Positions 17,830 through 58,192 are shown, numbered from the stretch's first letter. The stretch is DNA of 64,000 nt from a virus (IMGVR_UViG_2937142334_000003); one strand, 5' to 3'. A program made the numbers and translations. Notes: generated from the sequence alone by a model not told the origin.

Positions 17830-18405
17830 ATGGGTTCTAGTGGTGGTGCCGGTAAAGACACAGTAGCAAATTATATCAAAGATAATTTATTCAACGGCCG
17901 TGCCGTTAAACACGCATTAGGGGAACCTATTCATGAATTAGCTGAACAATTTGCTGGGGATAAGGTACAGCGTCATCATTTGCAAGATCTAGGAGAAAGT
18001 ATCAGAAGTATTTTTGGTCATGAAGCGTGGATCAATCTACTTGACGAAAAATATGGCGGTATTGACGTGCCATTAATAATTCCAGATATTCGCAAATTAT
18101 TAGAATATTCACACTACTGTATCGAAAAAGAGTTTAAGCCGTTATATGTGTATACTGACCCAGAAATTGCAAAAAAGAGACTAAAAGATCGAGATGGTGG
18201 TTATAACGAGGAAGATTTAGGTAAGAATATCGAACGGCAAATGGACTTCTTACAAGACTATGGTCGTAAACAATTCCCTAAGCGCTTCGTTACACAGTTA
18301 AATGCACCATATCCATTCGGCGAAATTTATGTTATTGATAACTCGGGTTCACTCCAAGATACATATCGACAATTAAATGAATGGTGGGAATTGATTCATG
18401 AGTAA
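17830..18405 (+). CDS. P-loop nucleotide kinase (dNMP-kinase-like)
   Basis: GSSGGAGKDT Walker A near N-terminus. True start may be a non-ATG codon a few codons upstream. Confidence 0.45.
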   Translation: MGSSGGAGKDTVANYIKDNLFNGRAVKHALGEPIHELAEQFAGDKVQRHHLQDLGESIRSIFGHEAWINLLDEKYGGIDVPLIIPDIRKLLEYSHYCIEKEFKPLYVYTDPEIAKKRLKDRDGGYNEEDLGKNIERQMDFLQDYGRKQFPKRFVTQLNAPYPFGEIYVIDNSGSLQDTYRQLNEWWELIHE

Positions 18406-18997
18406 TTTTACACACAAATACGACATAGAAGTTGGATTAGATTTAACTAAAATTCTTACTCCAGAAGCTATTCCTGGTATTAAAGCCTATTTAGGTGTCG
18501 ATAACGACAATGAACTTCTGAATGCTATCGCAGAAGATAGATACCAAAAGTTAGTCCAAGCATTACAAGAGGCTGGATTTGGAGTTATTCGCGCAGGATT
18601 CTCAAGAATTGAAGAGAAAGACCATGGTGAACAAAAGGATGCAAGCACGTCACCTTTAAATAAAGCTAAGGACCATAACGTTAGCAAAGAACAAAAAGGT
18701 GAGCAATTAAGTCTTGAAGAATTTAGTAATACACTGATCTCGCTTTTAAAGGGCGAACAAAAAAGGATCTCTGATAATGACGGAGAAATCATCAAGGTGG
18801 ATATTGACGCAGATTATATTAGTATTGCTCCAAACTTTGATGTTATCCGTAAAGAGGCTGGATTAAACAATGAAATAGAATTTAATTTTGAAGAGTTAAA
18901 TGATGGGGTAATACTAATCTCATATACAGATCCTGAAAAACAACAATTACAATTTAAGAAAATTTCCAAGGAGGAATTAGTTAATGCCAAAGGCTAA
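18398..18997 (+). CDS. hypothetical protein
   Basis: ORF track. Overlapping start/stop. Confidence 0.5.
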   Translation: MSNFTHKYDIEVGLDLTKILTPEAIPGIKAYLGVDNDNELLNAIAEDRYQKLVQALQEAGFGVIRAGFSRIEEKDHGEQKDASTSPLNKAKDHNVSKEQKGEQLSLEEFSNTLISLLKGEQKRISDNDGEIIKVDIDADYISIAPNFDVIRKEAGLNNEIEFNFEELNDGVILISYTDPEKQQLQFKKISKEELVNAKG

Positions 18998-20132
18998 GTT
19001 AGAAAAAGAATTAAAGCCGGGAATTGCCCGTTTTATTGCTCGAGGACGAGCTTCTATTTCAAGCGACACATTCCCTGCACAAACTACTGAATCTAAGTCA
19101 GGTTGGGTATATAAACGAGTAGGCTTCCCAGTTAAGATTGGTGATAGTAATTCTATTTATGTACAAATGATGGGTGGCTACTCAAAGCGTAAGCCGGTTG
19201 TCCATGTATTTAACAAGGATACTAATCAACATATGGAGCTTGATTGGGATTTACGTGATAACGAAGATGCTCTTAAAAATGTTGCCGAATTCTCATTCAT
19301 CAATGTTGCTCTTGAACGCGACGAAAAAGGAAAGTTAATCCGAAAACGTTTCTTATCTGAACTAGATGCTATTAATTACATGAACGAACACTTACATGAC
19401 GGCCAAGAAATTTACGTTAGTGGTAACGTTGAATACCAACGTTACGATGGAAAGATTAGTCGTAGTTTCAATGTCACAAATATTGGCCTGTACGACGGTA
19501 AGGATAATGAGGAAGTAGAAGAAAAGGCGGAAATGCGTCAAACCTACTTGCTAGAAAGTACGGCGTTGCCAAGAGATTGGGAAAAGACATTAAAAGAAAG
19601 AAACGAGATTGTTGTTAATGCCTTTGTCCCACAATACGTTGGTAAGGAAAATGGCAAGGAAATTAAAAAGACGCTTGCTTTCCCACAACAATTTACTATT
19701 CAAACTACAGAAGACAAAGTAGATATGATGACCAAAGCTATCGAAACGCTTTTTAAAGTCAAAAAAGGCGTAGTTCGTGAAATTGGTCTCAAGAATAATA
19801 TTGTTCACGGTTATGAAAAGAGTACGGGTAAGATTCAACGAAGTAAGCAGGTTATGGAATTGATTCAACTTGGTATTATGACCGAAGAACAAATTGAAAA
19901 CGAAGAAACAATTGGTGACCGCAGTGTTGACAAGGTTATTTTCAAGATGCCATTAATGAACGTTGATGGTGAAAAGTCAGATTTCATGTTAGCAGACAAG
20001 TATTCGCCTGAAGCATTGATTGTCGTTGAAGATGATGAAGATATTGAAGAAAATACTAGCGTGTTCAACGAGGACGATAATAAAGATGAAGAAGCCAATG
20101 CAGACGCAATGTTTGGCGGTCTGTTTAAATAA
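18984..20132 (+). CDS. hypothetical protein with acidic C-terminus (possible ssDNA-binding or recombination protein)
   Basis: ORF track. RBS caaggagga. Confidence 0.5.
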   Translation: MPKAKLEKELKPGIARFIARGRASISSDTFPAQTTESKSGWVYKRVGFPVKIGDSNSIYVQMMGGYSKRKPVVHVFNKDTNQHMELDWDLRDNEDALKNVAEFSFINVALERDEKGKLIRKRFLSELDAINYMNEHLHDGQEIYVSGNVEYQRYDGKISRSFNVTNIGLYDGKDNEEVEEKAEMRQTYLLESTALPRDWEKTLKERNEIVVNAFVPQYVGKENGKEIKKTLAFPQQFTIQTTEDKVDMMTKAIETLFKVKKGVVREIGLKNNIVHGYEKSTGKIQRSKQVMELIQLGIMTEEQIENEETIGDRSVDKVIFKMPLMNVDGEKSDFMLADKYSPEALIVVEDDEDIEENTSVFNEDDNKDEEANADAMFGGLFK

Positions 20133-20195
20133 TAGTAAAACTCTCCCATTAGTCACAACAAAAATACGAAAATATATTTAATAAGGGGTTATTGT

Positions 20196-21289: not shown

Positions 21290-22634
21290 AAATGTCGTGA
21301 TAAATATAAGATGGTGCCCGATAAATCTTTGAGAGGGGGTGATACAAACGATAAGAACAGAAAAAGTTAGATTATATCCTAATAGCATAATGAAACAACA
21401 GTTAAAGGATCTTTGTGACTATCGTCGCTATTGTTGGAACAAGGGTTTGGCGCTATGGAACGATATGTATGATGAGTCTGTCTTGCTAGGCAATAAGAAA
21501 TTACGACCCAACGAAAGGAAGGTTCGTAATGAACTTGTAACTAACAAACAAGATTGGCAATATCTATATTCGTCTCGTTGCCTACAATTAGCGATTTCTG
21601 ATCTTGGAAAGGCTTGGGAAAACTTTTTTAATAAAGCGCAATCCGATTGGGGAATACCCAAATTCAAATCTAAAAAAGCTCCTAAACAAGGCTTCAAAAC
21701 TGATCGAGCAAAGATTGTTAATGGGAAGCTGCGATTGGATAAGCCTAGAGGAATTAAAGAATGGTCGGATATTAAGATTGCAGGTGTAAAATCTCTAGAT
21801 GGTGACTTAAAGGTTGTATCAATTTACCGTGAGAACGGCAAATATTGGGCATCACTGCCTTTTGAAGTGACGATTAAGCATAAGCCTAAAACGGAGCAGA
21901 AGACAGCAATTGATGTCAATGTTGGACACTTTAATACTCCAGGTGGTCAAATTACCATTATTCCAAAGCGATTAGATAGGCTTTATAAACGGATTAAGCA
22001 TTACCAACGCCAATTAGCTAAGAAACGAATTGTTAATGGTAAACAAGCATACCAATCAAATAATTACGTTAAAACGAGAGCCAAGTTACAACGTGATTAT
22101 CGTAAAGTAACTAATATTCAGCGTGATATTATTCAAAAGTTTACTACTAAGCTAGTCGATGATTACGATCAAATCGTAATTGAAGATCTGGATGTTAAAC
22201 AAATGCAAATGAGTCATGTCGCTTCTAAGGGTTTACAACGTTCGTTGTTTGGTTACTTTCGCCAAGTTCTTACATACAAATGCGAGTGGTATGGCAAAGA
22301 ATTGATCCTCGCCAATCAGCATTATCCAAGTACGCAACGCTGTTCACAGTGTGGGTACATTAAAACTGGTGAGGATAAGATTACTCTAGCTGGGAATCAG
22401 AAATATCATACTAAGCATAACGAGTACATATGTTATAAGTGTGATGCAGTAATGGATAGAGATGAAAATGCTGTAATGAATTTATTACAGTTAGCATAAA
22501 TAAGAATAAATATTAACGGGGTGGGCTACATCCTTAAACTATCAGAGTTGGTCAATGTCATTACCCTCTAGTTAGGATATGGGAATACCGATGTTGACGG
22601 TAGTAAATAAAATTAAGAAAGGAAAAGCTATATA
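21290..22634 (+). mobile_element. IS607-family tnpB-only element, copy A. Conserved right end 22518..22634.
   Basis: Left-end motif taaatctttgagagggggtga. Right end nearly identical to copies at 30883..30999 and 59826..59935 (reverse complement). Confidence 0.6.
21339..22499 (+). CDS. tnpB: IS607-family TnpB
   Basis: VRLYPN..LCDYRRYCWN. AIDVNVGHFN, IVIEDLDVKQM, CSQCGY...CYKCDAVMDRDENAVMNL. Confidence 0.85.
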   Translation: MIQTIRTEKVRLYPNSIMKQQLKDLCDYRRYCWNKGLALWNDMYDESVLLGNKKLRPNERKVRNELVTNKQDWQYLYSSRCLQLAISDLGKAWENFFNKAQSDWGIPKFKSKKAPKQGFKTDRAKIVNGKLRLDKPRGIKEWSDIKIAGVKSLDGDLKVVSIYRENGKYWASLPFEVTIKHKPKTEQKTAIDVNVGHFNTPGGQITIIPKRLDRLYKRIKHYQRQLAKKRIVNGKQAYQSNNYVKTRAKLQRDYRKVTNIQRDIIQKFTTKLVDDYDQIVIEDLDVKQMQMSHVASKGLQRSLFGYFRQVLTYKCEWYGKELILANQHYPSTQRCSQCGYIKTGEDKITLAGNQKYHTKHNEYICYKCDAVMDRDENAVMNLLQLA

Positions 22635-29654: not shown

Positions 29655-30999
29655 AAATGGTAGAACATTTGGGCGTATCTATTAAATCTTTGAAAGGTGG
29701 TGAGATAAATGATCCGAACAGAAAAAGTTAGGTTGTATCCCAATACGACAATGAAACAAGCCATAGATGCCTTGTGTGACTATCGACGTTATTGCTGGAA
29801 CGAAGGCTTGGCGTTGTGGAATGATATGTATGAAGAGTCTAAGTTGATGGACAATAAGAAGTTACGACCAAATGAGTACAAGGTCCGTAATGAACTTGTT
29901 GCTAATAAACAAGATTGGCAATATCTATATTCGTCTCGTTGCCTACAATTAGCGATTTCTGATCTTGGAAAGGCTTGGGAAAACTTTTTCGACAAAGCCC
30001 AACCAGATTGGAGTATGCCAAAATTTAAGTCTAAGAAGACTCCAAGACAAGGTTTTAAGACTGACCGAGCCAAGATTGTTAATGGTAAACTCCGATTAGA
30101 TAAGCCAAGAGGGGTTAGTGGCTGGACAGATATTAGGATCTCGGGCGCTAAGCCCCTAGATGGCGAATTAAAAGTCATATCGATCTATCGTGAGAATGGC
30201 AAATACTGGGCGTCATTACCTTTTGAAACATCGGTTGATACAAAGTCTAAAACAGGTCAAAGTACAGCTATCGATGTTAACGTGGGCCACTTTAACTATC
30301 CCGATGGTCAGATTAATGTTTTGCCAGTAAAATTACAAAAGCTCTACAAGCGGATCAAGCATTACCAACGCCAATTGGCCCGTAAAAGGATTACGAATGG
30401 CAAAATGGCAACGCAAAGCAATAATTACATGAAAACGAGAGCCAAGTTGCAGCGCGATTATCGCAAGGTTGTCAACATTCAATCCGATCTTTTACAAAAG
30501 TTCACGACTAAGTTAGTCACCAATTACGACCAGATCGTTATCGAAGATCTTGCCGTCAAGAAAATGATGATGGATCACGTAGCATCGAAGGGTATGCAGC
30601 GGTCGTTGTTTAGCAAGTTTCGTCAAATTCTAACCTATAAGTGTGATTGGTACGGTAAGAAACTAATTCTGGCAAATAGATGTTATCCAAGTACACAGCG
30701 CTGTTCGCAATGTGGACATCTCAAGACTGGCGTGGACAAGATTACTCTAGCCGGCAACCAAAAACATCGTACTAAACACAATGAGTATATCTGTTACGAA
30801 TGTGGTTTGGTTATGGATAGAGATGAAAATGCCGTCATGAACTTATTACGGTTGGCGGCGGCGTAAAAAGAAAAATGCTTTTGGGGTGGGCTACACCCTT
30901 AGGCCATCAGAGTTGGTCAATGTCATTACCCTCTTGTTGGGCTATGGGAATACCGATGTTGACGGTGGTAAATAAAATTAAGAAAGGAAAAGCTATATA
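29655..30999 (+). mobile_element. IS607-family tnpB-only element, copy B
   Basis: Same left-end and right-end motifs as copy A. A ~90-bp stretch (29910..29990) is identical to 21551..21630. Confidence 0.6.
29709..30866 (+). CDS. tnpB: IS607-family TnpB
   Basis: Homolog of 21339..22499. Confidence 0.85.
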   Translation: MIRTEKVRLYPNTTMKQAIDALCDYRRYCWNEGLALWNDMYEESKLMDNKKLRPNEYKVRNELVANKQDWQYLYSSRCLQLAISDLGKAWENFFDKAQPDWSMPKFKSKKTPRQGFKTDRAKIVNGKLRLDKPRGVSGWTDIRISGAKPLDGELKVISIYRENGKYWASLPFETSVDTKSKTGQSTAIDVNVGHFNYPDGQINVLPVKLQKLYKRIKHYQRQLARKRITNGKMATQSNNYMKTRAKLQRDYRKVVNIQSDLLQKFTTKLVTNYDQIVIEDLAVKKMMMDHVASKGMQRSLFSKFRQILTYKCDWYGKKLILANRCYPSTQRCSQCGHLKTGVDKITLAGNQKHRTKHNEYICYECGLVMDRDENAVMNLLRLAAA

Positions 31000-31406: not shown

Positions 31407-31614
31407 AGAACCTATGTATTTTTACTATAAAGGAATTCAAATTATTCCTACTAATCAGTGGGAAGTAGATGGTGATAGTGGGACAGTTCAGTTTATTGAT
31501 GCAATTAATGTTAGAACAGGGCGTGAAATGACTGGATTGCCTGCAAAGAAAATTGTTGTAAGTAAAATTCATGTATTACCAAACAAGGAGGAAGTAAATG
31601 GAAAAATCAGTTAA
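31393..31614 (+). CDS. hypothetical protein
   Basis: ORF track. Confidence 0.4.
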   Translation: MKLNREPMYFYYKGIQIIPTNQWEVDGDSGTVQFIDAINVRTGREMTGLPAKKIVVSKIHVLPNKEEVNGKIS

Positions 31615-32407
31615 ATGGTCTATTGGAGTAGTTATTGTATTATTGGGTGTCACTATTGGGGGCTTCCGATTCTTTGAGAAGATTGATAATGGTAACGTTG
31701 GTATTCGTTATTCGATGTCGGGAGGGGTTCGTGACGAAAGTTTAGGCCAGGGAGTACGATTCGTTGGGTTAGATAAAGTTACTCAGTATCCTATTCGCAG
31801 TCAAACTGTTAAACAAAAGGTTGGGTCTGCTACTAAAGATGGGAAGAAGACTACTGTTAATATTACTTATGCTTACCATGTAGATCCAACTAAAGCCACT
31901 AAGGTATATAAGAAATTTGGATCAGCAGATATTAAGTCAATTGAAAATGGTTGGCTTAATCAAAAGCTTCAAAAAGCTAGTCGTGATGAATTATCTAAGT
32001 ATAGCTTGCTTGATGTAATGGGTGCTGGCTCTGCTAAGGTCCAAGGCGCCATTTTGAAGGACTTCCAAAAGTCAGTTGAAGACCAAGGATTCATTGTTGA
32101 AGATTTAAGTTTCGGCGTTCCTGATGTTGATGCTCAAACTCAAAAATCAATTGATGATTTAATTAAGGCCAGTCAAGATAACGAACGGGCTAAGTTAGAA
32201 GCGAAGACTAAGAAGACCGAGGCCGAAGCTGATGCAAATGCAAAGATTGCACGTGCAGAAGGGGAAGCTAAGGCAAATAAGAAGATTTCTGATTCAATCA
32301 CTGATAAGAATATTCAATACATGGAAGCACAAGCACACCTTAAGCATGGTTTCGTTACTGTTCAAGGTGCAAATGGTGTGATTGTAGATCAAGCAGGTAA
32401 CAAGTAA
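31598..32407 (+). CDS. SPFH/band-7 (prohibitin/HflC-like) membrane protein
   Basis: N-terminal TM, GIRYSMSGGV...QTV core, C-terminal coiled coil KLEAKTKKTEAEADANAKIARAEGEAKA. Confidence 0.6.
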   Translation: MEKSVKWSIGVVIVLLGVTIGGFRFFEKIDNGNVGIRYSMSGGVRDESLGQGVRFVGLDKVTQYPIRSQTVKQKVGSATKDGKKTTVNITYAYHVDPTKATKVYKKFGSADIKSIENGWLNQKLQKASRDELSKYSLLDVMGAGSAKVQGAILKDFQKSVEDQGFIVEDLSFGVPDVDAQTQKSIDDLIKASQDNERAKLEAKTKKTEAEADANAKIARAEGEAKANKKISDSITDKNIQYMEAQAHLKHGFVTVQGANGVIVDQAGNK

Positions 32408-32566
32408 TGGGATATTTCATTGTTAAGTCATTAATGCTACTAGTTGTTATTGGCGTTTTAATATTTGGAAATTTGTATTTAATAGACAACAAGAAGAGTG
32501 AAAGCTCGGATAAGCAGCCCAAATAGGGTAAAAGCTACTAAACAAGAAAGAGGGAATTATATAAAT

Positions 32567-33337
32567 ATGGGAACTAGTGTAGAAAAGATTGCGTGGTATA
32601 GCGTATTCAAGCCAAGTTGGTATGTTGAACAGATGAAGGGCTGGACAACTCGTAGCTATTGTTTGTTACTTATTGGAATTGGGTTGATTGTAGGTATGAC
32701 AGTTGGTGGCGGGATATTTAATCCTGTTACAATGACAACAATGCTTGCGGGGGTACTAGGATTCACATGCACCTTGTCAATTTCTAATTCAAAGCCACTA
32801 AATGGAATTCTAGGTCTAATAAGTGCCTTGATTTATATCTTTGTAGCGATTAATGCAAAAAATTATAATGATGTATTATTACAAACAATTTATATCTTAG
32901 CACTAGATTTACCGGTATTACTTTCTCCAAGCTGGGCTAAAGATGTTGATAAGAAAGTGCGTTTCCTCGGAGAACAAGGACATGGTTTACGCAATTGGAC
33001 TCTAACTGTTCTATTGTTTGTTGTTTTAACGCTTGTGTTGTACTATTCAGATACGCATTGGTTTATCAGTCCTCGCCCATGGGTTGATAGTATCGCTGCT
33101 TCAGTGGGAATTACAGGAGCCGTGCTAACTACATTCCGCTTTAGCGAAAGCTATTTCTGCTGGTTGGCGCAAGGATTACTTTCAGTAACATTATGGGGAA
33201 TCACAGCGGTACAAGGAGATGCTAATTTTGTACTTTTTGTTACGTACCTATTGTACTTATCAAATGACTTTTTAGCATTTTTTGATAAAGATATTGCGTG
33301 GTTCCATCACGAAAAACACCAACTAACAACTAAATAG
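32567..33337 (+). CDS. pnuC: PnuC-family nicotinamide riboside transporter, putative
   Basis: Multi-TM protein. GFTCTLSISNSKPLNGILGLISALIYIFVAINAKNYNDVLLQ resembles the PnuC core. Start at the ATG after agagggaatt. Confidence 0.5.
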   Translation: MGTSVEKIAWYSVFKPSWYVEQMKGWTTRSYCLLLIGIGLIVGMTVGGGIFNPVTMTTMLAGVLGFTCTLSISNSKPLNGILGLISALIYIFVAINAKNYNDVLLQTIYILALDLPVLLSPSWAKDVDKKVRFLGEQGHGLRNWTLTVLLFVVLTLVLYYSDTHWFISPRPWVDSIAASVGITGAVLTTFRFSESYFCWLAQGLLSVTLWGITAVQGDANFVLFVTYLLYLSNDFLAFFDKDIAWFHHEKHQLTTK

Positions 33338-33679: not shown

Positions 33680-33943
33680 ATGATTAAGGTAAAAATTTAT
33701 ACAAAAGAGCATTGTCCTGCTTGTATGATGACTAAGAAGTTGTTTAATAAGCTGGACGTAGATTATAAAGAGGTAACAGTTCTTCAAGATAGTCCAATGT
33801 TAGAAGTTTTACGTGAACAGGGGTGGCACAGTTTTCCCGTAGTAGAATGGCTGGACGAAGAAGGCGTAGGAGACGCTTGGTCAGGATTTAACCCAGATAA
33901 TATTAAGGAGGTAGCTAGTTATTATGGACAAAGCATTGATTAA
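33680..33943 (+). CDS. NrdH/glutaredoxin-like redoxin
   Basis: MIKVKIYTKEHCPACMMTKKLF has a CPAC active-site motif. Confidence 0.6.
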   Translation: MIKVKIYTKEHCPACMMTKKLFNKLDVDYKEVTVLQDSPMLEVLREQGWHSFPVVEWLDEEGVGDAWSGFNPDNIKEVASYYGQSID

Positions 33944-34236: not shown

Positions 34237-34331
34237 AGATATCGTTGATGAGGAGCAACGCAGTTGCGACCCGTTAATAAATCACACAGATCAAATGATC
34301 AATTCAACATTTCAGGATTATTCCTGATTAT

Positions 34332-34404
34332 GGGCTTATAGTTTAACTGGAGAGAACAGTAATCTTCTAAATTACCAACCTTGGTTCGAGTCCAAGTGAG
34401 CCCA
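34332..34404 (+). tRNA. tRNA-Arg (anticodon TCT)
   Basis: Manual cloverleaf: acceptor gggctta/tgagccc, D-arm gttt/gaac, anticodon stem gtaat/attac with loop cttctaa, T-arm cttgg-ttcgagt-ccaag. 73 nt. Confidence 0.8.
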
Positions 34405-34432
34405 TCAACTCTTATGAAAGGGAGGCGGATAC

Positions 34433-35125
34433 ATGTTTGTCCCTGTTAGCGATTATGAGGGATTATATAAGATTAACGAAATTGGAGAAGTTAGATCTGT
34501 GCATAGAATATATAAAGATTCTATCGGCAGAGCAAGAACGGTCAATGAACACGTCGTTAAACCTTGCGTCAATAAATCTGGATATAAAACGCTTGGACTA
34601 TATAAGGATGGAAAAAGAACTACAGAATATGTTCATAAGTTGGTATATGCCTCTTTTAATCATTTAACTCATGAAGAAATAGGTGAAATTGATATCGATC
34701 ATATCGATGGAAATAAACTAAATTGTCATTTAGATAATTTGGAAGCTGTTTCTCACAAAGAGAATATTCATAGAAAAATATGCCGAAAAAATGGACTAAC
34801 AATTCAAAAAGGTAATTCTTATGCCGAAAATTTTCATTATTTTGGACAACAAAATAAATTCTTTAAAATAAGATGTAGAATTTGCGGTAAGCCATTGTTA
34901 AAAAGTGAAAGCGGACTTTGTAGAATTTGTTATGATTCTTACGTAAGGAGCAGCAAAAAGCCTAATAAGCAACAGTTTCTCATTCATCTTCGTAAAACAC
35001 TGGATATTCACGACCTGAGTAAAATATATGACGTAGAAGAGCACAGTGTTAGAAGATGGTTAAGAGAATACGGCATACCAAGCCTCACTGAGCTCAAAAA
35101 GAATCCTGAATTAATTGAAGCGTAA
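34433..35125 (+). CDS. HNH homing endonuclease with NUMOD4-like N-terminus
   Basis: GLYKINEIGEVRSV and IDHIDGNKLNCHLDNLEAVSHKEN. Confidence 0.75.
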   Translation: MFVPVSDYEGLYKINEIGEVRSVHRIYKDSIGRARTVNEHVVKPCVNKSGYKTLGLYKDGKRTTEYVHKLVYASFNHLTHEEIGEIDIDHIDGNKLNCHLDNLEAVSHKENIHRKICRKNGLTIQKGNSYAENFHYFGQQNKFFKIRCRICGKPLLKSESGLCRICYDSYVRSSKKPNKQQFLIHLRKTLDIHDLSKIYDVEEHSVRRWLREYGIPSLTELKKNPELIEA

Positions 35126-35510
35126 ATTGCGAAGAGTGGAAAGGCAATACGTACATTTTGGAAGTACACACTCCCTATATATCTTTTAAATTCATAATAC
35201 AAACACACCTTTCTAATTTTTAATCATCCATGTTTGTCTTTTACAGAGGTTCGACTCCTCTGCTTCGCATAGGGCAGAAATGCCCGAAATTATTAAACAT
35301 TTGCGTGCTGTGTTTAATAATCAAAAATTGTTGATTCATAAATTTTCATTTCTTTTTATCTACTTTTGTCAGCACACTGCGGTTCGATTCCGTTTTGTGT
35401 TATTCCCAGCTAAGTGGTTGGGCTGGGGAACTCCTTTCATGGTTAAACACCTCCGAAATATGAAAGATTAGTTAGTCAGATAAGATATGTGTGGTCTTAT
35501 CTTGATATGG

Positions 35511-35580
35511 TTCGGTATAGCTCAGTTGGTAGAGCAACATTGTACGGTGTAGATATGTGGTTCGATTCCCATTGCCGAAA
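35511..35580 (+). pseudogene. tRNA-like element (degenerate): acceptor ttcggta/tgccgaa and consensus D-arm TAGCTCAGTTGGTAGAGC, but no foldable anticodon or T stem
   Basis: Manual folding fails for nt 27-65. Length 70 nt. Confidence 0.35.
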
Positions 35581-35735
35581 TTCCTAGTAATAGGTTGTTC
35601 CAAATGACGGAAAACGTTTGGAATGTAAAAACACCTAACGTATGTTCAATAGGTTATATTTTCCACATGCCTTTACCTTTACATTTTTCAATTCGATCTA
35701 ATAACGTGTTTGCGCTGGCATGGCACGTTATTAAT

Positions 35736-35818
35736 GCCTAGATAGCGAAGTCTGGTCAAACGCGACGGTCTCCAAAACCGTTCCTTCGGGTTCGGGGGTT
35801 CAAATCCCTCTCTAGGCA
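35736..35818 (+). tRNA. class-II-shaped tRNA (12-nt variable arm, A73) carrying anticodon CCA. Identity ambiguous: Leu/Tyr-like body with a Trp anticodon.
   Basis: Acceptor gcctaga/tctaggc, 3-bp D-stem with 13-nt loop, anticodon stem acggt/accgt with loop ctccaaa, variable arm tccttcgggttc, T-arm ggggg-ttcaaat-ccctc. 83 nt. Confidence 0.55.
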
Positions 35819-35843
35819 TTGATTAAGAAGGAAAGGAGTAAGA

Positions 35844-36778: not shown

Positions 36779-36824
36779 GTCTACATCATTCCTTTCTTAT
36801 GATATTTTATCAAAGAAACAATTT

Positions 36825-36896
36825 ACACGAATAATTCAATTGGCAGAATGGTAGCCTCCAAAACTACTCATCTAGGTTCAAGTCCTAGTTCGTGTG
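36825..36896 (+). tRNA. tRNA-Trp (anticodon CCA)
   Basis: Acceptor acacgaa/ttcgtgt, D-arm attc/gaat, anticodon loop ctccaaa, T-arm ctagg-ttcaagt-cctag. 72 nt. Confidence 0.7.
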
Positions 36897-38595: not shown

Positions 38596-38667
38596 GCGGT
38601 TATAGTTTAACTGGTAAAACCACAGCCTTCCAAGCTGTTGTCGCGAGTTCGAGTCTCGTTAACCGCT
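38596..38667 (+). tRNA. tRNA-Gly (anticodon TCC)
   Basis: Acceptor gcggtta/taaccgc, anticodon stem acagc/gctgt with loop cttccaa. 72 nt. Confidence 0.85.
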
Positions 38668-49775: not shown

Positions 49776-50012
49776 ACGGTGGCCATGTTACAGATTAACT
49801 AATAAAAGATCGTCCGTAAACCTGCCAAAGTTAGTAGGACGGTTTTTTATTATGCACAGAATGTGAAAATAAAGGTTAGCAATGCGATAATAAATGTCGC
49901 AAAGGCCAACATTAACATAAGTGCTTGGTAAGCGCTCATGTGCCGATAATCCTTTCATCATGGTGAAGTCCATATGAACCACCTCCAGTCAGGAATCGGC
50001 CACCGTCCTTAA
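49776..50012. other. 13-bp perfect inverted repeats (aaggacggtggcc / ggccaccgtcctt) bracketing a 225-bp segment with a small minus-strand ORF and an internal hairpin
   Basis: Seen in sequence. Confidence 0.45.
49788..49975 (-). CDS. hypothetical 62-aa Cys-containing protein. Start at the ATG after ggaggtgg.
   Basis: ORF track 49788..49982. Confidence 0.3.
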
Positions 50013-50286
50013 AACTTGCCTGCTCTAGTATTATATCATATAGATAAAAAGGGACCCAGGAACCAAAATGATTCCTGGGTTATTTAATAATGGAAATATA
50101 CTATTTAAAATTAGGGAGTTAAATAGTATGTCACTATTATAACATAGTTTAGCCAGACCTTTTGTAAAATGAATGTTTTATCAATTTAGAAAATATTGGA
50201 AAAATAAAAGAAGCTTGATTAGAAGCTTCTTTGTTTCTACCATCTAGGTATCCTTATATGTAAAAGATGAATTGATTATATCATAA

Positions 50287-53200
50287 TTATTTTTTAAGTA
50301 AACCTACAGTCGCAGTAAATCTATCTTGTTGGGATATATCATCTCCAAAAAGGCCATATAGTCTATCAACAAGTTGATCATTATTTTTGTGTGCATCATT
50401 TAATTTTTCTGGTAAAGCAGAATTAGATGCATACATTTGATATATAGAAATATCATTTTTCATAAGGTTTTCGCGTTCATTGATTATATTCTTTGCAGAC
50501 TCTTCCAGAAGTAATTTGTCTTTATCAGACAACTCAGGAAGTGGGAATTTATAATAAACAGTTTCCGTAGAATACCTAATGCCATTTCCAAGACTTCCAC
50601 TAATAATTTGAGTCCAGGCATAATGTAATCTGCTTTGCAAAATAGCAAATAACCAAAGTGGAGCGTCAAAAATCTGGTAAACTTGATCACTAACTATTAC
50701 GTTATCCGATATATAACGCATGGGTACAATCATTCTCTTACTGGTTGTATTTCTAGGTATTGCAAGGCTAGATTTATGTCTGTATCTATCTCTCTTATAA
50801 GTTCCAGGTGTTTTAGAAAGTTTTCTATCTTCTTTTGATACGGTCTGTCTAAAGATTGATATATTCTTTAGTCTGTCCTGAATGAAAATTGGTAATTTAT
50901 TAATATCGCTATCCTTCGGAATATACATTTCATAACTTTGAGATGTATTTTGCTTAAGTAGCTCTTGACCTCCGTAAAATGGATGAAAATATTTTGCGCT
51001 TTCAGGATCACTATCGATTAGCTCGTCATATTTAGACTTTGTAATTCTGTAATTCCCATCATCAAGGAAGACACTTCCAAGTTCGGCTAACGGTAATTCT
51101 GTATTCTTTGACTGTTTAGATAAGTTAATCCAGTCACCCTCAACTAAATATTCATTAATATTTGATACAAGACGAATATTTTGGTTTTCATCAACCAATC
51201 TTTTATTCTGATGCCCGAGTAGAGCTCCTTTTTTATTGAAACCTATGATAACTACGAATACCTGTGCACCGTTATTATCCCATCTGAATGTCTGGTATGC
51301 AAAATCTATTTCTAGTTTGTGTCCCGTTAGGAGTTTCTCAAGATTTAGTGCCTGCACACCTTGCGCTATAGAATTAGAGGACACAAAGCCAACTTTTAGA
51401 TTTCTATTGAATTCGGTCGCTTTTGCAGCTTTCATAAACCAACCAAACACGAAATCCATATTATTTAATCTTTTTAACGCAGATTTTGGGAAATAAGTTG
51501 ACAGACGTGGATGTTCGAATTTACCCTTCTTCGTTTTCCCGCCTTTAAATGGTGGGTTTCCTAAAATATAATTTAAGGAACTTAAATCAACTACATTATT
51601 CCAGTTTAGTTTTAGTGCATCACCCTGAATAATATTCGCTGATTTATGGAGTGGTATACGGACAAAAGGAACACCAGATACGACAGTTTCAGAAAATTCC
51701 TGGTTCATAATATGATCCATCATCCACATACCTGCTCTAGCTATATCTATAGGGTATCGATTGTATTTGGCCTCACCTTTTTCTGATTCATATGGAATAC
51801 CGAGTTCAATACCACTAAACTGATTGACTTCAACCCCAATAAGCGGCTGCCAGTTCCGTGAGTTTTTATCTGAAGATAGATTGCCATATCGTGTAAACCC
51901 AAGTGTAGTAACATCGTTTAGGCCAAAACCGATTTCTGCATTACTTTGGTTGGTGCTAATCAATATTTCTGATACAACTTGATGTTCTAATCTTCTTAAT
52001 TCCCTATAGGCAAGGATTAAAAAGTTTCCAGAACCACAAGCAGGATCAAGAAAAGTAAGTGTTGATAATTTTCTCTTAAATGCGAGTAATTTGTTCGTAA
52101 CGCTTGCTTTCGATTTCTTTATTTTCTCGAATTCTTCTCTCAGATCATCCATAAATAGGTTGTTTATTACCTTCAAGATATTTTCTTCGCTTGTGTAATG
52201 CGCCCCTATTTCATGTCTAGTTCCTTTATCCATTGCACCTTCATACATTGATCCGAAAACTATTGGGTTCACCTTAGACCAATCATCTTTAGATATATTA
52301 TAAAGGTCATCAACTAATTGATCATCCAATGGTTTTACATAAAGGCTAAAGGATTCCTTTTCAGCACCTTCGAAGAGTCCTCCGTCGATATAAGAAACTC
52401 CGGGAGCCAATCTAGCTCTTAATTCGTTATCTTCAGTGTCAACTGCACCGAAAAAGCGCTTGAGTTTTTCTAAACGTAAAGGCGCCTCTATCTCTTTCAG
52501 CCCATGTAAAAAGTCAGTGAAGATATTTTGCTTGTTAAATATTTGAGTGTCATCAGCGAACATTAGGAACGCTAATCGAACAATCATTTTGTCTGCTTGT
52601 TCCTGCGTAAAGCCTAAAGAAATAAGCTTACTATGGATTTGTCCCATTTTTGTTGCTTTATCAGCAGAGATTCTTAAACCTAATTCACGCTTCTTTGTGA
52701 CCTCTTTTTTCAGATCTACAATAGGAGAGATCTCTTTATCGTCTAGTTTTGGAATGATATTTTGAGGCGCTAATAGATAAAATAACTTTTCTAAATTATC
52801 ACCAGAAGTCAGTTTCTCTAAGTTTATAGAAAAATAGTCTAGTCGGTTTCCAAGATAAACTCTTAATTCAACAAAGTTAGTTACGATTTCAAAACGTTGT
52901 TGATTATCTGGATTGCGAAAACGGGAGGCGTAATCAAAAGCTTGATCTATTCCTTTACCACGATCATGCTGGCCTCTTTTACCAAAGCCATAAGTAGAAT
53001 CTTCTACTTCAATAAAACCAACGGGATATATATCGTTAGACTTGTTCGAATCTAGATCCTCCACATTGAATAATCCTAAAATACCATCTGGAATTTTTCC
53101 CGTCTGATCACTATATTCTGTAGCAAACGTTACTGTATCTGATTTTCTAGAGCTTGAATCGGTTTTTGTATAGCCCAGTATATCCACAAATAGATTGCGT

Positions 53201-53382
53201 AAAAAGTCAGGTCGGTGTTGATTTTCCTTCCATTTATAAACCTCATCACCATGAAAAGAGTTAACTAGACGCTTGGCTGCTTCATACTTTTCTTTTGTTA
53301 TCAGTGCCTTGGTATTTTGGGCAGCCATATCGTTTCGTAAATCAACGTCCGAAATGATAGTTCCATGATTAATTATACTCAT
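50287..53382 (-). CDS. gamma-class N6-adenine DNA methyltransferase fused to large N- and C-terminal domains. Candidate Type IIL/IIG (MmeI-like) restriction-modification enzyme or BREX PglX-like methyltransferase.
   Basis: FLDPACGSGNFL (motif I) and GNPPF (motif IV) in the middle of a 1031-aa protein. Possible PD..EVE nuclease-like motif near the N-terminus. Confidence 0.6.
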   Translation of the reverse strand: MSIINHGTIISDVDLRNDMAAQNTKALITKEKYEAAKRLVNSFHGDEVYKWKENQHRPDFLRNLFVDILGYTKTDSSSRKSDTVTFATEYSDQTGKIPDGILGLFNVEDLDSNKSNDIYPVGFIEVEDSTYGFGKRGQHDRGKGIDQAFDYASRFRNPDNQQRFEIVTNFVELRVYLGNRLDYFSINLEKLTSGDNLEKLFYLLAPQNIIPKLDDKEISPIVDLKKEVTKKRELGLRISADKATKMGQIHSKLISLGFTQEQADKMIVRLAFLMFADDTQIFNKQNIFTDFLHGLKEIEAPLRLEKLKRFFGAVDTEDNELRARLAPGVSYIDGGLFEGAEKESFSLYVKPLDDQLVDDLYNISKDDWSKVNPIVFGSMYEGAMDKGTRHEIGAHYTSEENILKVINNLFMDDLREEFEKIKKSKASVTNKLLAFKRKLSTLTFLDPACGSGNFLILAYRELRRLEHQVVSEILISTNQSNAEIGFGLNDVTTLGFTRYGNLSSDKNSRNWQPLIGVEVNQFSGIELGIPYESEKGEAKYNRYPIDIARAGMWMMDHIMNQEFSETVVSGVPFVRIPLHKSANIIQGDALKLNWNNVVDLSSLNYILGNPPFKGGKTKKGKFEHPRLSTYFPKSALKRLNNMDFVFGWFMKAAKATEFNRNLKVGFVSSNSIAQGVQALNLEKLLTGHKLEIDFAYQTFRWDNNGAQVFVVIIGFNKKGALLGHQNKRLVDENQNIRLVSNINEYLVEGDWINLSKQSKNTELPLAELGSVFLDDGNYRITKSKYDELIDSDPESAKYFHPFYGGQELLKQNTSQSYEMYIPKDSDINKLPIFIQDRLKNISIFRQTVSKEDRKLSKTPGTYKRDRYRHKSSLAIPRNTTSKRMIVPMRYISDNVIVSDQVYQIFDAPLWLFAILQSRLHYAWTQIISGSLGNGIRYSTETVYYKFPLPELSDKDKLLLEESAKNIINERENLMKNDISIYQMYASNSALPEKLNDAHKNNDQLVDRLYGLFGDDISQQDRFTATVGLLKK

Positions 53383-56860: not shown

Positions 56861-56921
56861 CACAATTATAATATCATACTTAGTCAATTAAGTACAATAA
56901 AATTCATTTTAGTACCAACCA

Positions 56922-57440
56922 CTAGTAGAATGAATTTTGTTGCCAAAATAATTTGGCCGCAGTCCACGAGCCGTATCTTTGTGCAACATATCGATCCGCT
57001 GTAGCTTCTTGATTTTCAGGACTTAGATCTCCGTTAAGGTATGAGACATCAAGCTGAAATTTACCATAGTACCGCGAATTTGCAGCAGTATAACTACCAC
57101 CAGATTCACGTTGTGCAATCCAAGCCTTTGCCTCAGCCTCTGAACCTGAAGCAGAGATACCTGATACACCACTTGCTGCAGGTGCTTGTTGAGTAACTGG
57201 TGTGGTATTAGTTGTAGTATTTTGTTGGTCGCTAGTTGGTGTAGTTACAGGGTTCGTTACATGATTATCGGTATCTTGCCCGTTTACATCTGTGTTCTTT
57301 ACACCAGGCATAACAACCAACTTATCTCCTACGTGAATTAAATGTTTGTTTGCAATATGATTTTCACGCACAAGAGTATCAACGTCCGTTCCGTGCTTTT
57401 GAGCGATGGCAGATAATGTATCACCCGCTTCTACTTGCAC
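56922..57440 (-). CDS. LysM-domain protein with an Apf/transglycosylase-like C-terminal domain. The mature protein probably starts upstream (signal peptide KNNNGVKIALTAIGALALGLVATGTTANA in-frame up to ~57542, no ATG).
   Basis: LysM: VEAGDTLSAIAQKHGTDVDTLVRENHIANKHLIHVGDKLVV. C-terminus: ESGGSYTAANSRYYGKFQ ... W. Confidence 0.6.
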   Translation of the reverse strand: MQVEAGDTLSAIAQKHGTDVDTLVRENHIANKHLIHVGDKLVVMPGVKNTDVNGQDTDNHVTNPVTTPTSDQQNTTTNTTPVTQQAPAASGVSGISASGSEAEAKAWIAQRESGGSYTAANSRYYGKFQLDVSYLNGDLSPENQEATADRYVAQRYGSWTAAKLFWQQNSFY

Positions 57441-57567
57441 GTGGTTGCTGTCAATAGTTGTGTCGGCATTTGCTGTTGTTCCTGTTGCTACAAGACCGAG
57501 TGCTAATGCTCCTATAGCTGTTAATGCAATCTTTACGCCGTTGTTATTCTTAGTGTTTAAAATAGTA

Positions 57568-58192
57568 TCATACTTCCTTTTCTTTATTTTTCTTAGTTAC
57601 TTTAATTACTGGATTTGTGTAATGGTAGCGGCAAACCGAAATATATTCCTGATCACCAATTTGAATTTGATCTCCATCATAGACTGGGGCGCCATCTACC
57701 ATTCTTAAATTCATTGTTGCTTTATGGTCACACCATTGACAAACTGTTTTGATTTCCTCTAATTTATCTGCTACCTCAAATAGTGTTTTTGATCCTTCAA
57801 ACAGATTACATTGAAAATCAGTCCGTAAGCCATAACAGATAATTGGAATATTATATGTGTCAACAATATTAGCTAAATCAACGACTTGCTGTGCCGTTAA
57901 GAATTCAGCTTCGTCGATTAAAATACAGTGTGGCCAAACAGTTCTTCCTTCTGTATCTAACTTCAATAACTTTGTAATCAATTCAATTACGTTATCTTCT
58001 GGTTTAATTGGTTGTGCTTCACAACTTAATCCTACTCGACTTGAAACCTTTCCAACGCCATAGCGATCATCGATGGCACTGGTCATAATCAAAACATCCT
58101 TATCTTGTTCTTGGTAATTGTGAGCTGTGGTTAGCAAGGACAATGATTTGCCTCGCATTCATAGCTCCATACTTAAAAAATAATTGTGCCAT
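57568..58192 (-). pseudogene. tdk: thymidine kinase with an apparent 1-nt insertion in the P-loop codons (MAQLFFKYGAMNA / RGKS)
   Basis: N-terminus MAQLFFKYGAMNA reads in one frame. The remainder (GKSLSLLT ... LIDEAEF ... ICYGLRTDF ... CQWCDHKAT ... SVCRYHY) reads in the +1 frame. Confidence 0.7.

What the first reader, a model, noticed from the sequence alone, without database searches (positions are those of the whole stretch)
17830..58192. Distributed nucleotide-salvage toolkit including a phage-borne nucleoside 2-deoxyribosyltransferase
The toolkit comprises a dNMP-kinase-like gene (17830), deoxynucleoside kinase (41488), NDT (45126), thymidine kinase (57568, frameshifted), PnuC-like transporter (32567) and NrdH-like redoxin (33680). 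NDT is rare outside lactobacilli. Its presence with dNK points to host-independent dNTP salvage or base-exchange chemistry, possibly feeding non-canonical nucleotides into phage DNA.
Basis: partly seen in the sequence, partly recalled or inferred. Interest (0 to 1): 0.55.

Follow-up and report, generated by a model that had tools for sequence, protein, structure and literature searches.

The report
Deoxynucleoside salvage genes on phage-plasmid

Summary
All six genes sit at the stated coordinates and pass profile searches; only the dNMP-kinase-like gene is a weak call. The replicon is not a host chromosome. It is a ~130-140 kb extrachromosomal phage-plasmid of Limosilactobacillus reuteri, and its relatives carry terminase, tape measure, holin, RepA and ParM. 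The NDT is a canonical class II enzyme: 66% identical to L. leichmannii NDT, 82% to the chromosomal L. reuteri NDT, with all catalytic residues kept. The PnuC-like protein falls in the PnuN subgroup of predicted deoxynucleoside transporters, not with proven nicotinamide riboside carriers. The set PnuN-like, glutaredoxin, NDT and dNK (plus a PgpA-like protein) recurs, often as neighbouring genes, in unrelated Lactobacillales phages and has been discussed in print. NDT is annotated in 42 phage records. The best reading is a host-derived copy of the lactobacillus deoxynucleoside salvage route. Nothing supports non-canonical DNA. The verdict is a new member of a known kind. One part is unusual: the TK frameshift (GCG_A_GGC inside Walker A) occurs in four diverged alleles with 24-35 synonymous against 4 non-synonymous differences and no second lesion. 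That suggests +1 recoding rather than decay, but this is unproven.

The parts
17812..18405 (+). NMP-kinase-fold P-loop protein (dNMP-kinase-like). The first ATG is at 17830, but the likely start is the ATC at 17812.
   Evidence: PHROG 139 'dNMP kinase' 57.6 bits. Pfam DNMK is below cutoff. The AlphaFold model (pLDDT 84.2) matches adenylate-kinase-related, UMP/CMP-kinase, TMK and dephospho-CoA-kinase folds, TMq 0.5-0.67. Homologues start M[KR]NIAIMGSSGGAGKDT, and their ATG aligns with the window's ATC, which lies 6 nt after GGAGGA and is conserved in 4 relatives. The substrate is not resolved.
32567..33337 (+). Pnu-family membrane transporter of the PnuN subgroup (predicted deoxynucleoside importer)
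   Evidence: Pfam and NCBIfam PnuC hits are above cutoff. BLASTP gives 149 bits and 34% identity to L. acidophilus PnuN, against 58 bits to a riboswitch-linked PnuC and 37 bits to the H. influenzae NR transporter (sequences from the PMC7749635 supplement). It sits next to NDT in L005/L007/L008 and near NDT in Lb338-1 and ATCC 8014-B2.
33680..33943 (+). NrdH-like glutaredoxin-like redoxin
   Evidence: Pfam Glutaredoxin 51 bits. NCBIfam NrdH subfamily 65.2 bits, below its cutoff of 85.75. CPAC and WSGFNPD motifs are visible in the translation. A glutaredoxin/thioredoxin-domain gene also sits next to the NDT in ATCC 8014-B2 and next to pnuC in the L. reuteri plasmid records.
34331..40438 (+). tRNA/tmRNA array with HNH and small ORFs. 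It separates the PnuN/NrdH pair from dNK/NDT. This is context, not part of the pathway.
   Evidence: ARAGORN finds 6 tRNAs plus a tmRNA. Rfam finds 9 tRNA hits plus the tmRNA. In relative L002 the same four salvage genes lie within 8 kb.
40769..41491 (+). HNH endonuclease overlapping the start of dNK; probably the mobile partner of this dNK allele
   Evidence: PHROG 374 HNH endonuclease 185 bits. The HNH plus dNK pair is 100% identical in L001, whereas the nearest relatives carry a different dNK (34-36% identity) at this position.
41488..42234 (+). Deoxynucleoside kinase of a variant subtype
   Evidence: Pfam dNK 106 bits. It is 62% identical to annotated dNKs of L. plantarum myophages, and the family occurs in 129 phage records. 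The P-loop GVGKT and the lid RLRGRE are present. The (D/E)RS motif reads DSS and EPV reads EDV, as in phage ATCC 8014-B2; relatives L003/L100/Lb338-1 have the canonical DRS and EPV.
45126..45602 (+). Class II nucleoside 2-deoxyribosyltransferase (NDT)
   Evidence: Pfam 76.9 bits. PDB 1F8X matches at E 1.4e-73 and 66% identity, with Y7, F13, Q46, D72, D92, E98, N123 and Y157 all kept. It is 82% identical to chromosomal L. reuteri NDT.
57568..58192 (-). Thymidine kinase with a +1 frameshift in Walker A (heptamer GCG_AGG_C at 58156-58150; extra A at 58153)
   Evidence: Pfam TK 144.6 bits; NCBIfam TK 212.7 bits, above its cutoff of 195. The frameshift was read directly. The same site is present in 4 diverged alleles and absent in one.
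58550..59749 (-). PgpA/YpjQ-like protein with a C-terminal extension of about 230 aa. It is a candidate accessory member (possible phosphatase) two genes upstream of TK.
   Evidence: Pfam PgpA 57 bits. PDB 1RFZ, 1TLQ (YpjQ) and 1Y9I (LtrC) match at E 1e-31 to 1e-38. A PgpA gene lies ~3.5 kb from the PnuC-NDT-dNK cluster in Lb338-1 and 4 kb upstream of NDT in L005. Its function was not tested.

Best explanation
The window comes from a ~130-140 kb phage-plasmid of Limosilactobacillus reuteri. It carries a host-style deoxynucleoside salvage route.

Proposed steps:
1. A PnuN-type facilitator brings deoxynucleosides into the cell.
2. A canonical class II NDT swaps bases between deoxynucleosides, so that whichever one is available can supply all four.
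3. The dNK and TK make dNMPs.
4. An NMP-kinase-fold protein makes dNDPs, and host NDP kinase finishes the job.
5. The NrdH-like redoxin serves the parallel ribonucleotide-reductase branch, using a host RNR or an RNR on the element. One relative carries nrdJ.

The route copies what lactobacilli do themselves and raises dNTP supply for replicating the element. It makes ordinary DNA.

Shown: the gene identities, the catalytic residues of the NDT, the host-like origin of the NDT, and the recurrence of the gene set in other phages.
Inferred: the transporter's substrate, the kinase specificities, and when the genes are expressed.
For: - Gene identities.
- The NDT is 66% identical to the solved L. 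leichmannii class II NDT with all 8 checked residues kept. It is 82% identical to NDTs on 2.1-2.3 Mb L. reuteri chromosomes.
- The PnuC-like protein is far closer to PnuN, the predicted deoxynucleoside transporter, than to proven NR transporters (149 against 37-58 bits; PMC7749635).
- No NMNAT, NadR, Nudix or NAMPT partner was found among the ORFs longer than 130 aa that I took as genes, on the prevailing coding strand. No NAD riboswitch was found.
- Recurrent linkage in relatives and other phages:
  - NDT and PnuN are neighbours in L005/L007/L008.
  - Lb338-1 has PgpA, then PnuC, an endonuclease, NDT and dNK.
  - ATCC 8014-B2 has PnuC, two small genes, a Trx/Grx gene, then NDT.
  - L002 has PnuN, NrdH, dNK and NDT within 8 kb.
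- At least 36 of 40 listed NDT-bearing phage records also carry this dNK family.
- The same interpretation has been published for L. plantarum myophages (PMC6669764).
- Phage-plasmid nature:
  - Phage structural and lysis genes in a relative: terminase, 9-kb tape measure, holin.
  - Plasmid genes in the same record: RepA, RepC, ParM, toxin-antitoxin pairs.
  - A GH25-LysM endolysin and a DnaE-type polymerase in relative L019.
  - 92-94% DNA identity to L. reuteri plasmid records.
Against: - No substrate was measured for any of the six proteins.
- PnuN's deoxynucleoside role is itself only a prediction. NCBIfam names the window's protein a nicotinamide riboside transporter, with a score above the cutoff.
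- No NrdR box was found upstream of the PnuN-like gene.
- The dNK lacks the Arg of the (D/E)RS motif.
- The dNMP-kinase-like protein matches many NMP-kinase folds, and T4 dNMP kinase was not among the top 50.
- The TK needs recoding to be made full-length.
- The genes lie in several transcription units on both strands, so co-regulation is not shown.
Confidence: 0.75

Rival explanations
1. The PnuC-like protein imports nicotinamide riboside for NAD+ salvage, as it is usually annotated. It does not belong to the deoxynucleotide set, and the remaining genes are a loose collection of common phage nucleotide genes.
For: NCBIfam TIGR01528 (NR transporter PnuC) scores 83.8 bits against a cutoff of 42.45, and PHROG 1880 is named PnuC-like NMN transport. 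Authors of the L. plantarum phage genomes placed it in NAD+ salvage (PMC6669764).
Against: It scores only 37 bits and 20% identity to the proven H. influenzae NR transporter, against 149 bits to PnuN. No NAD-salvage enzyme was found among the ORFs longer than 130 aa that I took as genes, on the prevailing coding strand, and no NAD+-II riboswitch was found. It is repeatedly next to NDT, Grx or dNK. Some depositors already call homologues an 'NrdR-regulated deoxyribonucleotide transporter'.
Confidence: 0.2
2. NDT plus dNK exchange bases to load a non-canonical base onto deoxyribose and feed it into the element's DNA.
For: NDT enzymes accept base analogues in vitro (established knowledge). An NDT-family enzyme, DmtZ, does make dZMP in Z-genome phages (PMC12884076).
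Against: The window's NDT is a near copy of the host's housekeeping enzyme (82%). It keeps F13, D92 and N123, the three positions that differ in the engineered NDT variant 4HX9 in the alignment; that 4HX9 is the phosphodeoxyribosyltransferase of Kaminski and Labesse 2013 is from my own knowledge. No PurZ, DatZ, MazZ, DpoZ, hydroxymethylase, glucosyltransferase or DpdA-like gene was found in the window or in the annotated relative. There is no source for an unusual base.
Confidence: 0.04
3. The genes are plasmid-style cargo. They benefit the carrier bacterium during long-term episomal residence, giving extra salvage capacity in the gut, rather than serving the lytic cycle.
For: Relatives are stable plasmid records with ParM, RepA and toxin-antitoxin genes and clear host-benefit cargo (metE/metF, methionine ABC transporter, gadB/gadC, nrdJ). 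The NDT is host-like.
Against: The salvage genes sit in the replication/early region next to the helicases and tRNAs, not in the IS-flanked cargo region. The same set occurs in strictly virulent Herelleviridae such as Lb338-1. The two roles do not exclude each other.
Confidence: 0.3
4. The TK is simply a dead pseudogene, so the toolkit lacks a thymidine branch.
For: One extra base breaks Walker A, and the 0 frame stops 17 codons later. An intact allele exists in a relative. The locus is a recombination mosaic, so a null patch could have spread.
Against: Four mutually diverged alleles share the site. They show 24-35 synonymous against 4 non-synonymous differences (pS 0.19-0.28, pN 0.008), with no stop or second indel in 585 nt. 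The variable sites just downstream of the shift fall on third positions of the TK frame.
Confidence: 0.4

Closest known systems
Nucleotide-metabolism module of Lactobacillus phage Lb338-1 (Herelleviridae) and related Lactobacillales phages (Lbab1, ATCC 8014-B2, Ldl1, Enterococcus phage 9183)
   Same: The same families occur and are often adjacent. Lb338-1 has PgpA (gp65), PnuC-like (gp70), NDT (gp72) and dNK (gp73). ATCC 8014-B2 has PnuC-like, a Trx/Grx-domain gene and NDT. Identities to the window are 64% (PnuC-like), 45% (NDT) and 38% (dNK).
   Different: In the window the set is spread over 40 kb and interrupted by a tRNA/tmRNA array, an HNH gene and TnpB elements. The carrier is a phage-plasmid with a DnaE-type polymerase, not a virulent myovirus. 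There is no DNA-level similarity to any INPHARED phage.
'Nucleotide precursor complex' described for L. plantarum myophages (Kyrkou et al. 2019, PMC6669764)
   Same: The paper already reads dNK, a phosphatase and NDT as nucleotide recycling in phages of lactobacilli. The window's dNK is 61-62% identical to theirs.
   Different: Those phages also carry NMNAT and ADP-ribose pyrophosphatase, and the authors assign the Pnu transporter to NAD+ salvage. The window has no such partners.
Class II nucleoside 2-deoxyribosyltransferase of L. leichmannii (PDB 1F8X) and chromosomal L. reuteri NDT
   Same: 66% and 82% identity, the same length, and the catalytic Glu98 with the Y7, D72, D92, N123 and Y157 set conserved.
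   Different: It is encoded on a mobile element. Its activity has not been measured.
PnuN of L. acidophilus (predicted deoxynucleoside transporter; Rodionov and Gelfand 2005, as cited in PMC7749635)
   Same: The best match among Pnu subfamilies: 34% identity over 240 aa, 149 bits.
   Different: Identity is only 34%. No NrdR box lies upstream. The PnuN function is itself untested.
DmtZ, the NDT-family enzyme of Z-genome phages (PMC12884076)
   Same: The same superfamily, and a phage setting where base exchange feeds DNA synthesis.
   Different: DmtZ acts on dAMP and transfers deoxyribose 5-phosphate to 2-aminoadenine, alongside PurZ and DpoZ. The window's enzyme is the nucleoside type and has no such partners.
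+1 frameshift sites Ty1 CUU_AGG_C and Ty3 GCG_AGU_U, and compensatory frameshifting in herpes simplex TK mutants (Atkins et al. 2016, PMC5009743)
   Same: The TK site GCG_AGG_C combines the Ty3 P-site codon with the Ty1 slow A-site codon and the +1-frame GGC. HSV offers a precedent for a TK made at a low level through a frameshift.
   Different: Those cases are eukaryotic. No bacterial example of this heptamer is known to me. AGG is only moderately rare here (3.9 per 1000 codons). Nothing has been measured.

Membership tests
Nucleoside 2-deoxyribosyltransferase, class II (PF05014) | Profile match above the curated threshold over the full domain | tested here: met
   Pfam 76.9 bits against a cutoff of 28.8, profile positions 1-117 of 117. 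PHROG 7995 scores 183.8 bits.
Nucleoside 2-deoxyribosyltransferase, class II (PF05014) | Catalytic nucleophile Glu98 and the substrate-binding residues Tyr7, Gln46, Asp72, Asp92, Asn123 and C-terminal Tyr157 (L. leichmannii numbering; the residue roles come from the published structures, not from a test here) | tested here: met
   All are conserved in the ungapped alignment to 1F8X.
Nucleoside 2-deoxyribosyltransferase, class II (PF05014) | Closer to class II (purine and pyrimidine) than to class I (purine-only PDT) | tested here: met
   249 bits to 1F8X (NDT) against 30.8 bits to 1S2D (PDT).
Nucleoside 2-deoxyribosyltransferase, class II (PF05014) | Deoxyribosyl transfer between bases in vitro | not testable with these tools
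   This needs an enzyme assay.
Deoxynucleoside kinase (PF01712) | Profile match above threshold, with the P-loop and the Arg-rich lid | tested here: met
   Pfam 106 bits against a cutoff of 27. GVGKT and RLRGRE are present.
Deoxynucleoside kinase (PF01712) | Canonical (D/E)RS and E-P-V substrate-site motifs | tested here: not met
   The window reads DSS and EDV, as does phage ATCC 8014-B2 (DSN, ED). Relatives L003/L100/Lb338-1 have DRS and EPV. It is therefore a variant subtype; family membership rests on the profile.
Thymidine kinase, TK1/Tdk type (PF00265) | Profile match above threshold | tested here: met
   Pfam 144.6 bits; NCBIfam NF003300 212.7 bits against a cutoff of 195.
Thymidine kinase, TK1/Tdk type (PF00265) | One uninterrupted reading frame that includes strand beta1 and Walker A | tested here: not met
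   An extra A at 58153 splits GAMNA|GKS. A full-length product needs a +1 shift.
PnuC nicotinamide riboside transporter (TIGR01528 equivalog) | Profile score above the curated cutoff | tested here: met
   83.8 bits against 42.45.
PnuC nicotinamide riboside transporter (TIGR01528 equivalog) | Closest to experimentally proven NR transporters; linked to NAD-salvage genes or an NAD riboswitch | tested here: not met
   37 bits to the H. influenzae PnuC against 149 bits to PnuN. No NAD-salvage neighbour and no riboswitch were found.
PnuN (predicted deoxynucleoside transporter) | Best reciprocal similarity among the Pnu subfamilies | tested here: met
   PnuN is the top hit of the five reference Pnu proteins.
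PnuN (predicted deoxynucleoside transporter) | NrdR operator upstream, or linkage to nrd or deoxynucleoside genes | tested here: inconclusive
   No NrdR box was found. An NrdH-like gene lies directly downstream, and NDT or dNK are linked in relatives.
NrdH redoxin (TIGR02194) | Profile above cutoff; CxxC and WSGFRP motifs; an RNR partner | tested here: inconclusive
   65.2 bits is below the cutoff of 85.75. CPAC and WSGFNPD are present. There is no RNR in the window; nrdJ is present in relative YLR001.
Phage dNMP kinase (T4 gp1 type, PF21448) | Profile above cutoff; closest fold is T4 dNMP kinase | tested here: not met
   Pfam 21.5 bits is below 27.1, and only the P-loop aligns. The fold search returns generic NMP kinases. 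PHROG 139 does match. 'NMP-kinase-fold, dNMP-kinase-like' is as far as the evidence goes.
Phage-plasmid | Phage structural and lysis genes together with plasmid replication and partition genes on one extrachromosomal replicon | tested here: met
   This was shown for relatives, not for the window's own replicon. NZ_CP065541.1 (circular, 132,625 bp, 94% identity over 71% of a 24.5-kb query) has terminase, tape measure, holin, RepA, RepC, ParM and TA systems.

The most novel reading that the evidence does not exclude
In this phage-plasmid lineage the thymidine kinase is expressed through a conserved +1 ribosomal frameshift at GCG_AGG_C inside its Walker A motif. The site resembles the yeast Ty1 and Ty3 sites and may set TK at a low or regulated level. 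It would be a bacterial +1 recoding site of a type so far described mainly in eukaryotes, sitting in a metabolic gene.
Probability: 0.35. Interest if true: 0.6.

Novelty: new member of a known kind. Interest (0 to 1): 0.3.

Why it matters
As a salvage toolkit it adds little. The same gene set is annotated in many phages of lactic acid bacteria, and its role in nucleotide recycling has been proposed in print.

Three smaller points have some value:
- The phage 'PnuC' genes of Lactobacillales phages are probably mis-named. They may import deoxynucleosides rather than nicotinamide riboside. This is testable and would change how about 100 phage records are annotated.
- The carrier is a large, undescribed L. 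reuteri phage-plasmid family that mixes phage, plasmid and metabolic cargo genes. L. reuteri is a species used as a probiotic.
- The TK frameshift is kept across diverged alleles under strong purifying selection. That makes it a candidate bacterial +1 recoding site that can be checked with one reporter assay or one peptide.

Tried and rejected
- Megablast of 40000-48000 against isolated phages: no match.
- Scan of one-genome-per-species contigs with the RecD2-like helicase: nothing confirmed.
- Exact-protein look-up of the last window gene: not on record.
- NrdR-box search (ACACWATATATWGTGT, up to 3 mismatches): one hit far from any salvage gene, fewer than the chance expectation of 2.5. Host NrdR control is therefore not supported.
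- Rfam at gathering thresholds: no riboswitch near the Pnu gene or any salvage gene.
- PDB sequence search with the dNMP-kinase-like protein: only a marginal dephospho-CoA-kinase tail match. I used a structure model instead.
- A chromosomal PnuN-like locus in Lentilactobacillus had an NDT 8 kb away and a second Pnu gene next to adenine deaminase. This is suggestive but not decisive.
- Internal start at the ATG at 58158 (GGAG lies 6 nt upstream) as a way to make active TK. I consider it unlikely because the product would lack strand beta1 and the start of the P-loop. This is inference from the fold, not a test.
- A local hairpin around the shift site (z -2.4 over 141 nt). It is too weak, and it overlaps the site itself, so I give it no weight.
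- I considered NDT as an anti-defence or signalling-nucleotide enzyme. I rejected it because of the 82% identity to the host's metabolic NDT.

Full report
**Observation.**
- dNK (41488-42234) scores 106 bits against Pfam dNK.
- NDT scores 76.9 bits against Nuc_deoxyrib_tr.
- TK scores 144.6 bits against Pfam TK.
- The PnuC-like gene scores 87.9 bits against NMN_transporter.
- The NrdH-like gene scores 51 bits against Glutaredoxin. It has CPAC and WSGFNPD motifs but falls below the NCBIfam NrdH cutoff.
- The dNMP-kinase-like gene is the weakest call. Pfam DNMK is below threshold and covers only the P-loop. PHROG 139 'dNMP kinase' gives 57.6 bits. A confident AlphaFold model (pLDDT 84) matches the general NMP-kinase fold without singling out T4 dNMP kinase.

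The TK frameshift is real. The gene starts at the ATG at 58192 (MAQLFFKYGAMNA). A single extra A at 58153 then precedes GGC AAA TCA, which splits Walker A.

**What the replicon is.** The window has no DNA-level match among isolated phages. It matches three Limosilactobacillus reuteri 'plasmid' records:
- NZ_CP065541.1, 132.6 kb, circular: 94% identity over 71% of a 24.5-kb query.
- NZ_CP102426.1: 92.5% identity.
- LN906635.1: 84% identity. At 138,515 bp it has the same length as an IMG/VR contig found independently with the NDT, so I take it to be the same record.

The annotated relative carries both kinds of gene. The phage genes are a terminase, a 9-kb tape-measure gene, a 6.7-kb specificity protein, a holin and XhlA. 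The plasmid genes are RepA, RepC, ParM and toxin-antitoxin pairs. It also has an IS-flanked cargo region with metE/metF, gadB/gadC and nrdJ. In another relative, the DNA beyond the window's right end encodes an ATP-dependent ligase, a DnaE-type polymerase, a primase and a GH25-LysM endolysin. The region is therefore neither host chromosome nor a classical lytic phage. It belongs to a large phage-plasmid of L. reuteri.

**The individual proteins.**
- NDT. It is 66% identical to the solved class II enzyme of L. leichmannii. The nucleophile Glu98 is kept, as are Tyr7, Phe13, Gln46, Asp72, Asp92, Asn123 and the C-terminal Tyr157. It is 82% identical to NDTs on 2.1-2.3 Mb L. reuteri chromosomes. 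It is a recently captured host gene of the ordinary nucleoside type.
- PnuC-like protein. It passes the NCBIfam PnuC model. Compared with reference proteins of the five Pnu subfamilies, however, it is much closer to L. acidophilus PnuN (149 bits, 34%) than to the proven H. influenzae nicotinamide riboside carrier (37 bits) or a riboswitch-linked streptococcal PnuC (58 bits). PnuN is the subfamily predicted to carry deoxynucleosides (PMC7749635). No NAD-salvage enzyme was found among the ORFs longer than 130 aa that I took as genes, on the prevailing coding strand, and there is no NAD riboswitch. I also found no NrdR operator.
- dNK. It belongs to a variant subtype in which the (D/E)RS motif reads DSS. 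Phage ATCC 8014-B2 shares this, while the closest relatives carry a canonical dNK only 34-36% identical at the same position. The variant arrives together with an overlapping HNH endonuclease gene, which suggests cassette replacement.

**The set recurs.**
- In relative L002 the PnuN-like, NrdH-like, dNK and NDT genes lie within 8 kb. In the window a tRNA/tmRNA array and mobile genes push them apart.
- In a more distant clade (75-77% protein identity) NDT and the PnuN-like gene are neighbours, and a PgpA-domain gene lies 4 kb upstream.
- In the unrelated myovirus Lb338-1 the order is PgpA, then PnuC-like, endonuclease, NDT and dNK. In the siphovirus ATCC 8014-B2 it is PnuC-like, two small genes, a thioredoxin-domain gene, then NDT.
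- Counts across 50,697 phage records:

| Family | Phage records |
|---|---|
| NDT | 42 (all Lactobacillales phages) |
| This dNK family | 129 |
| This Pnu type | 105 |
| TK | 1,744 |
| Kinase-like protein | 15 |

- At least 36 of the 40 listed NDT records also appear in the dNK list.
- Kyrkou et al. (PMC6669764) already described dNK, a phosphatase and NDT in L. plantarum phages as nucleotide recycling.

**Mechanism.** The best-supported reading is a copy of the host's deoxynucleoside salvage route placed on the element:
1. Import by the PnuN-like facilitator (inferred).
2. Base exchange by NDT, so that any available deoxynucleoside can supply all four. This activity is established for enzymes 66-82% identical and inferred here.
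3. Phosphorylation by dNK and TK, then by the NMP-kinase-fold protein (substrates inferred).
4. A final step by host NDP kinase.

The NrdH-like redoxin points to the parallel reductase branch. No RNR lies in the window, but a relative carries nrdJ. Whether the genes act during lytic replication, in the carrier state, or in both is open.

'NDT is rare outside lactobacilli' does not make this case surprising, because the host is a lactobacillus and the gene is host-derived. A phage-borne NDT is already widely annotated.

The non-canonical-nucleotide idea has a real precedent: DmtZ in Z-genome phages (PMC12884076). The window's enzyme is of the nucleoside type. It keeps F13, D92 and N123, the three positions that differ in the engineered NDT variant 4HX9 in the alignment; that 4HX9 is a phosphodeoxyribosyltransferase is from my own knowledge. 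No partner gene or modification gene was found. I put this reading at about 4%.

**The TK frameshift.** This is the one part that is not routine.
- The same GCG_A_GGC site occurs in four mutually diverged alleles: the window (identical to GCA_003174935), LN906635/UViG_2843020057, three OFxx metagenome contigs, and a human-gut contig. One relative has an intact AAC GCT GGC.
- With the extra base removed, the frameshift-bearing alleles differ pairwise by 24-35 synonymous against 4 non-synonymous changes (pS 0.19-0.28, pN 0.008). None has a stop or a second indel.
- The variable sites directly after the shift fall on third positions of the TK frame.
- This divergence did not accumulate under neutrality. 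Either the site is old and the gene is still translated across it, or a null patch was moved several times by short-tract recombination. The locus is a mosaic, which leaves the second option open.
- Two of the four alleles were found with a pattern that fixes nt 22-48, so their identity around the site is biased.
- The heptamer combines the Ty3 P-site codon GCG with the Ty1 A-site AGG and the +1-frame GGC (PMC5009743). AGG makes up 8% of Arg codons here and is never preceded by GCG in the other genes examined.
- I rate +1 recoding at about 0.35 and a dead gene at about 0.4.

**Verdict.** The salvage reading is supported. The claims of novelty and of non-canonical DNA are not. This is a new member of a known kind, and I score interest at 0.3. 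That score rests on the PnuN re-reading, the undescribed phage-plasmid carrier and the TK recoding candidate, not on the toolkit itself.

Noticed in passing
window 57568-58192 (-), site 58156-58150: The TK frameshift (GCG_A_GGC inside Walker A) is shared by four diverged alleles. They show 24-35 synonymous against 4 non-synonymous differences and no second lesion. One relative has an intact allele with six changes in nt 36-58. This is a candidate +1 recoding site resembling the Ty1 and Ty3 heptamers.
   Followed up: partly
window 17800-17832 (+): The dNMP-kinase-like gene seems to start at an ATC (17812), 6 nt after GGAGGA. Homologues have ATG at exactly this position (MKNIAIMGSS…). The ATC arrangement is conserved in four relatives, with indels only upstream of the RBS. 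The first ATG (17830) would remove strand beta1.
   Followed up: partly
whole window; relatives NZ_CP065541.1, NZ_CP102426.1, LN906635.1: The replicon family is a ~130-140 kb L. reuteri phage-plasmid deposited as 'plasmid unnamed1'. One circular molecule carries phage structural and lysis genes, RepA/RepC/ParM, TA systems and IS-flanked metabolic cargo (metE/metF, gad, nrdJ, a cobalamin adenosyltransferase). A search of the literature library found no description of it.
   Followed up: partly
window 34331-40438 (+): An array of at least 6 (ARAGORN) to 9 (Rfam) tRNA genes plus a tmRNA (39659-40033, tag ANNHRVTALAA). The tmRNA is conserved with the same tag in relatives L003 and L004. A tmRNA on a phage-plasmid is uncommon.
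   Followed up: no
window 13853-15004, 21339-22499, 29709-30866 (+); 59945-61118 (-): There are four TnpB (IS605/IS607-type) genes. Three are followed by an Rfam 'Transposase-1' RNA (22539-22597, 30904-30962, 59856-59914). The fourth TnpB is split by a frameshift (60168-61118 plus 59945-60232) and sits beside a MerR-resolvase type TnpA (61048-61731).
   Followed up: no
window 40769-42234 (+): An HNH endonuclease gene overlaps the start of a variant dNK (DSS in place of DRS). This pair replaces the canonical dNK (34-36% identity) found at the same place in the closest relatives. It looks like a homing-endonuclease-driven allele swap.
   Followed up: partly
window 58550-59749 (-); L005 5750-6229; Lb338-1 gp65: A PgpA/YpjQ/LtrC-family protein travels with the salvage genes in three unrelated lineages. 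Here it has a ~230-aa acidic C-terminal extension. It may be a phosphatase acting on nucleotides; its function is unknown.
   Followed up: partly
window 50287-53382 (-), 49870-50045 (-): A complete MmeI-like type IIL restriction-modification enzyme (methyltransferase, TRD and helicase-spacer domains). Next to it is an Rfam rli28 sRNA match (70 bits). This block is absent from the closest relatives.
   Followed up: no
window 6732-7574 (+); 31598-32566 (+): A divergent DNA polymerase III beta (sliding clamp)-like protein lies among the small early ORFs. An SPFH/prohibitin gene and a 26-codon hydrophobic ORF sit directly upstream of the PnuN-like gene; the SPFH gene is conserved there in relatives L002 and FN041.
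   Followed up: no
L012 (Lentilactobacillus laojiaonis chromosome CP085278.1): A chromosomal PnuN-like gene has an NDT 8 kb upstream. A second Pnu-family gene there is adjacent to an adenine deaminase, which hints that Pnu paralogues in lactobacilli serve nucleobase or nucleoside metabolism.
   Followed up: no
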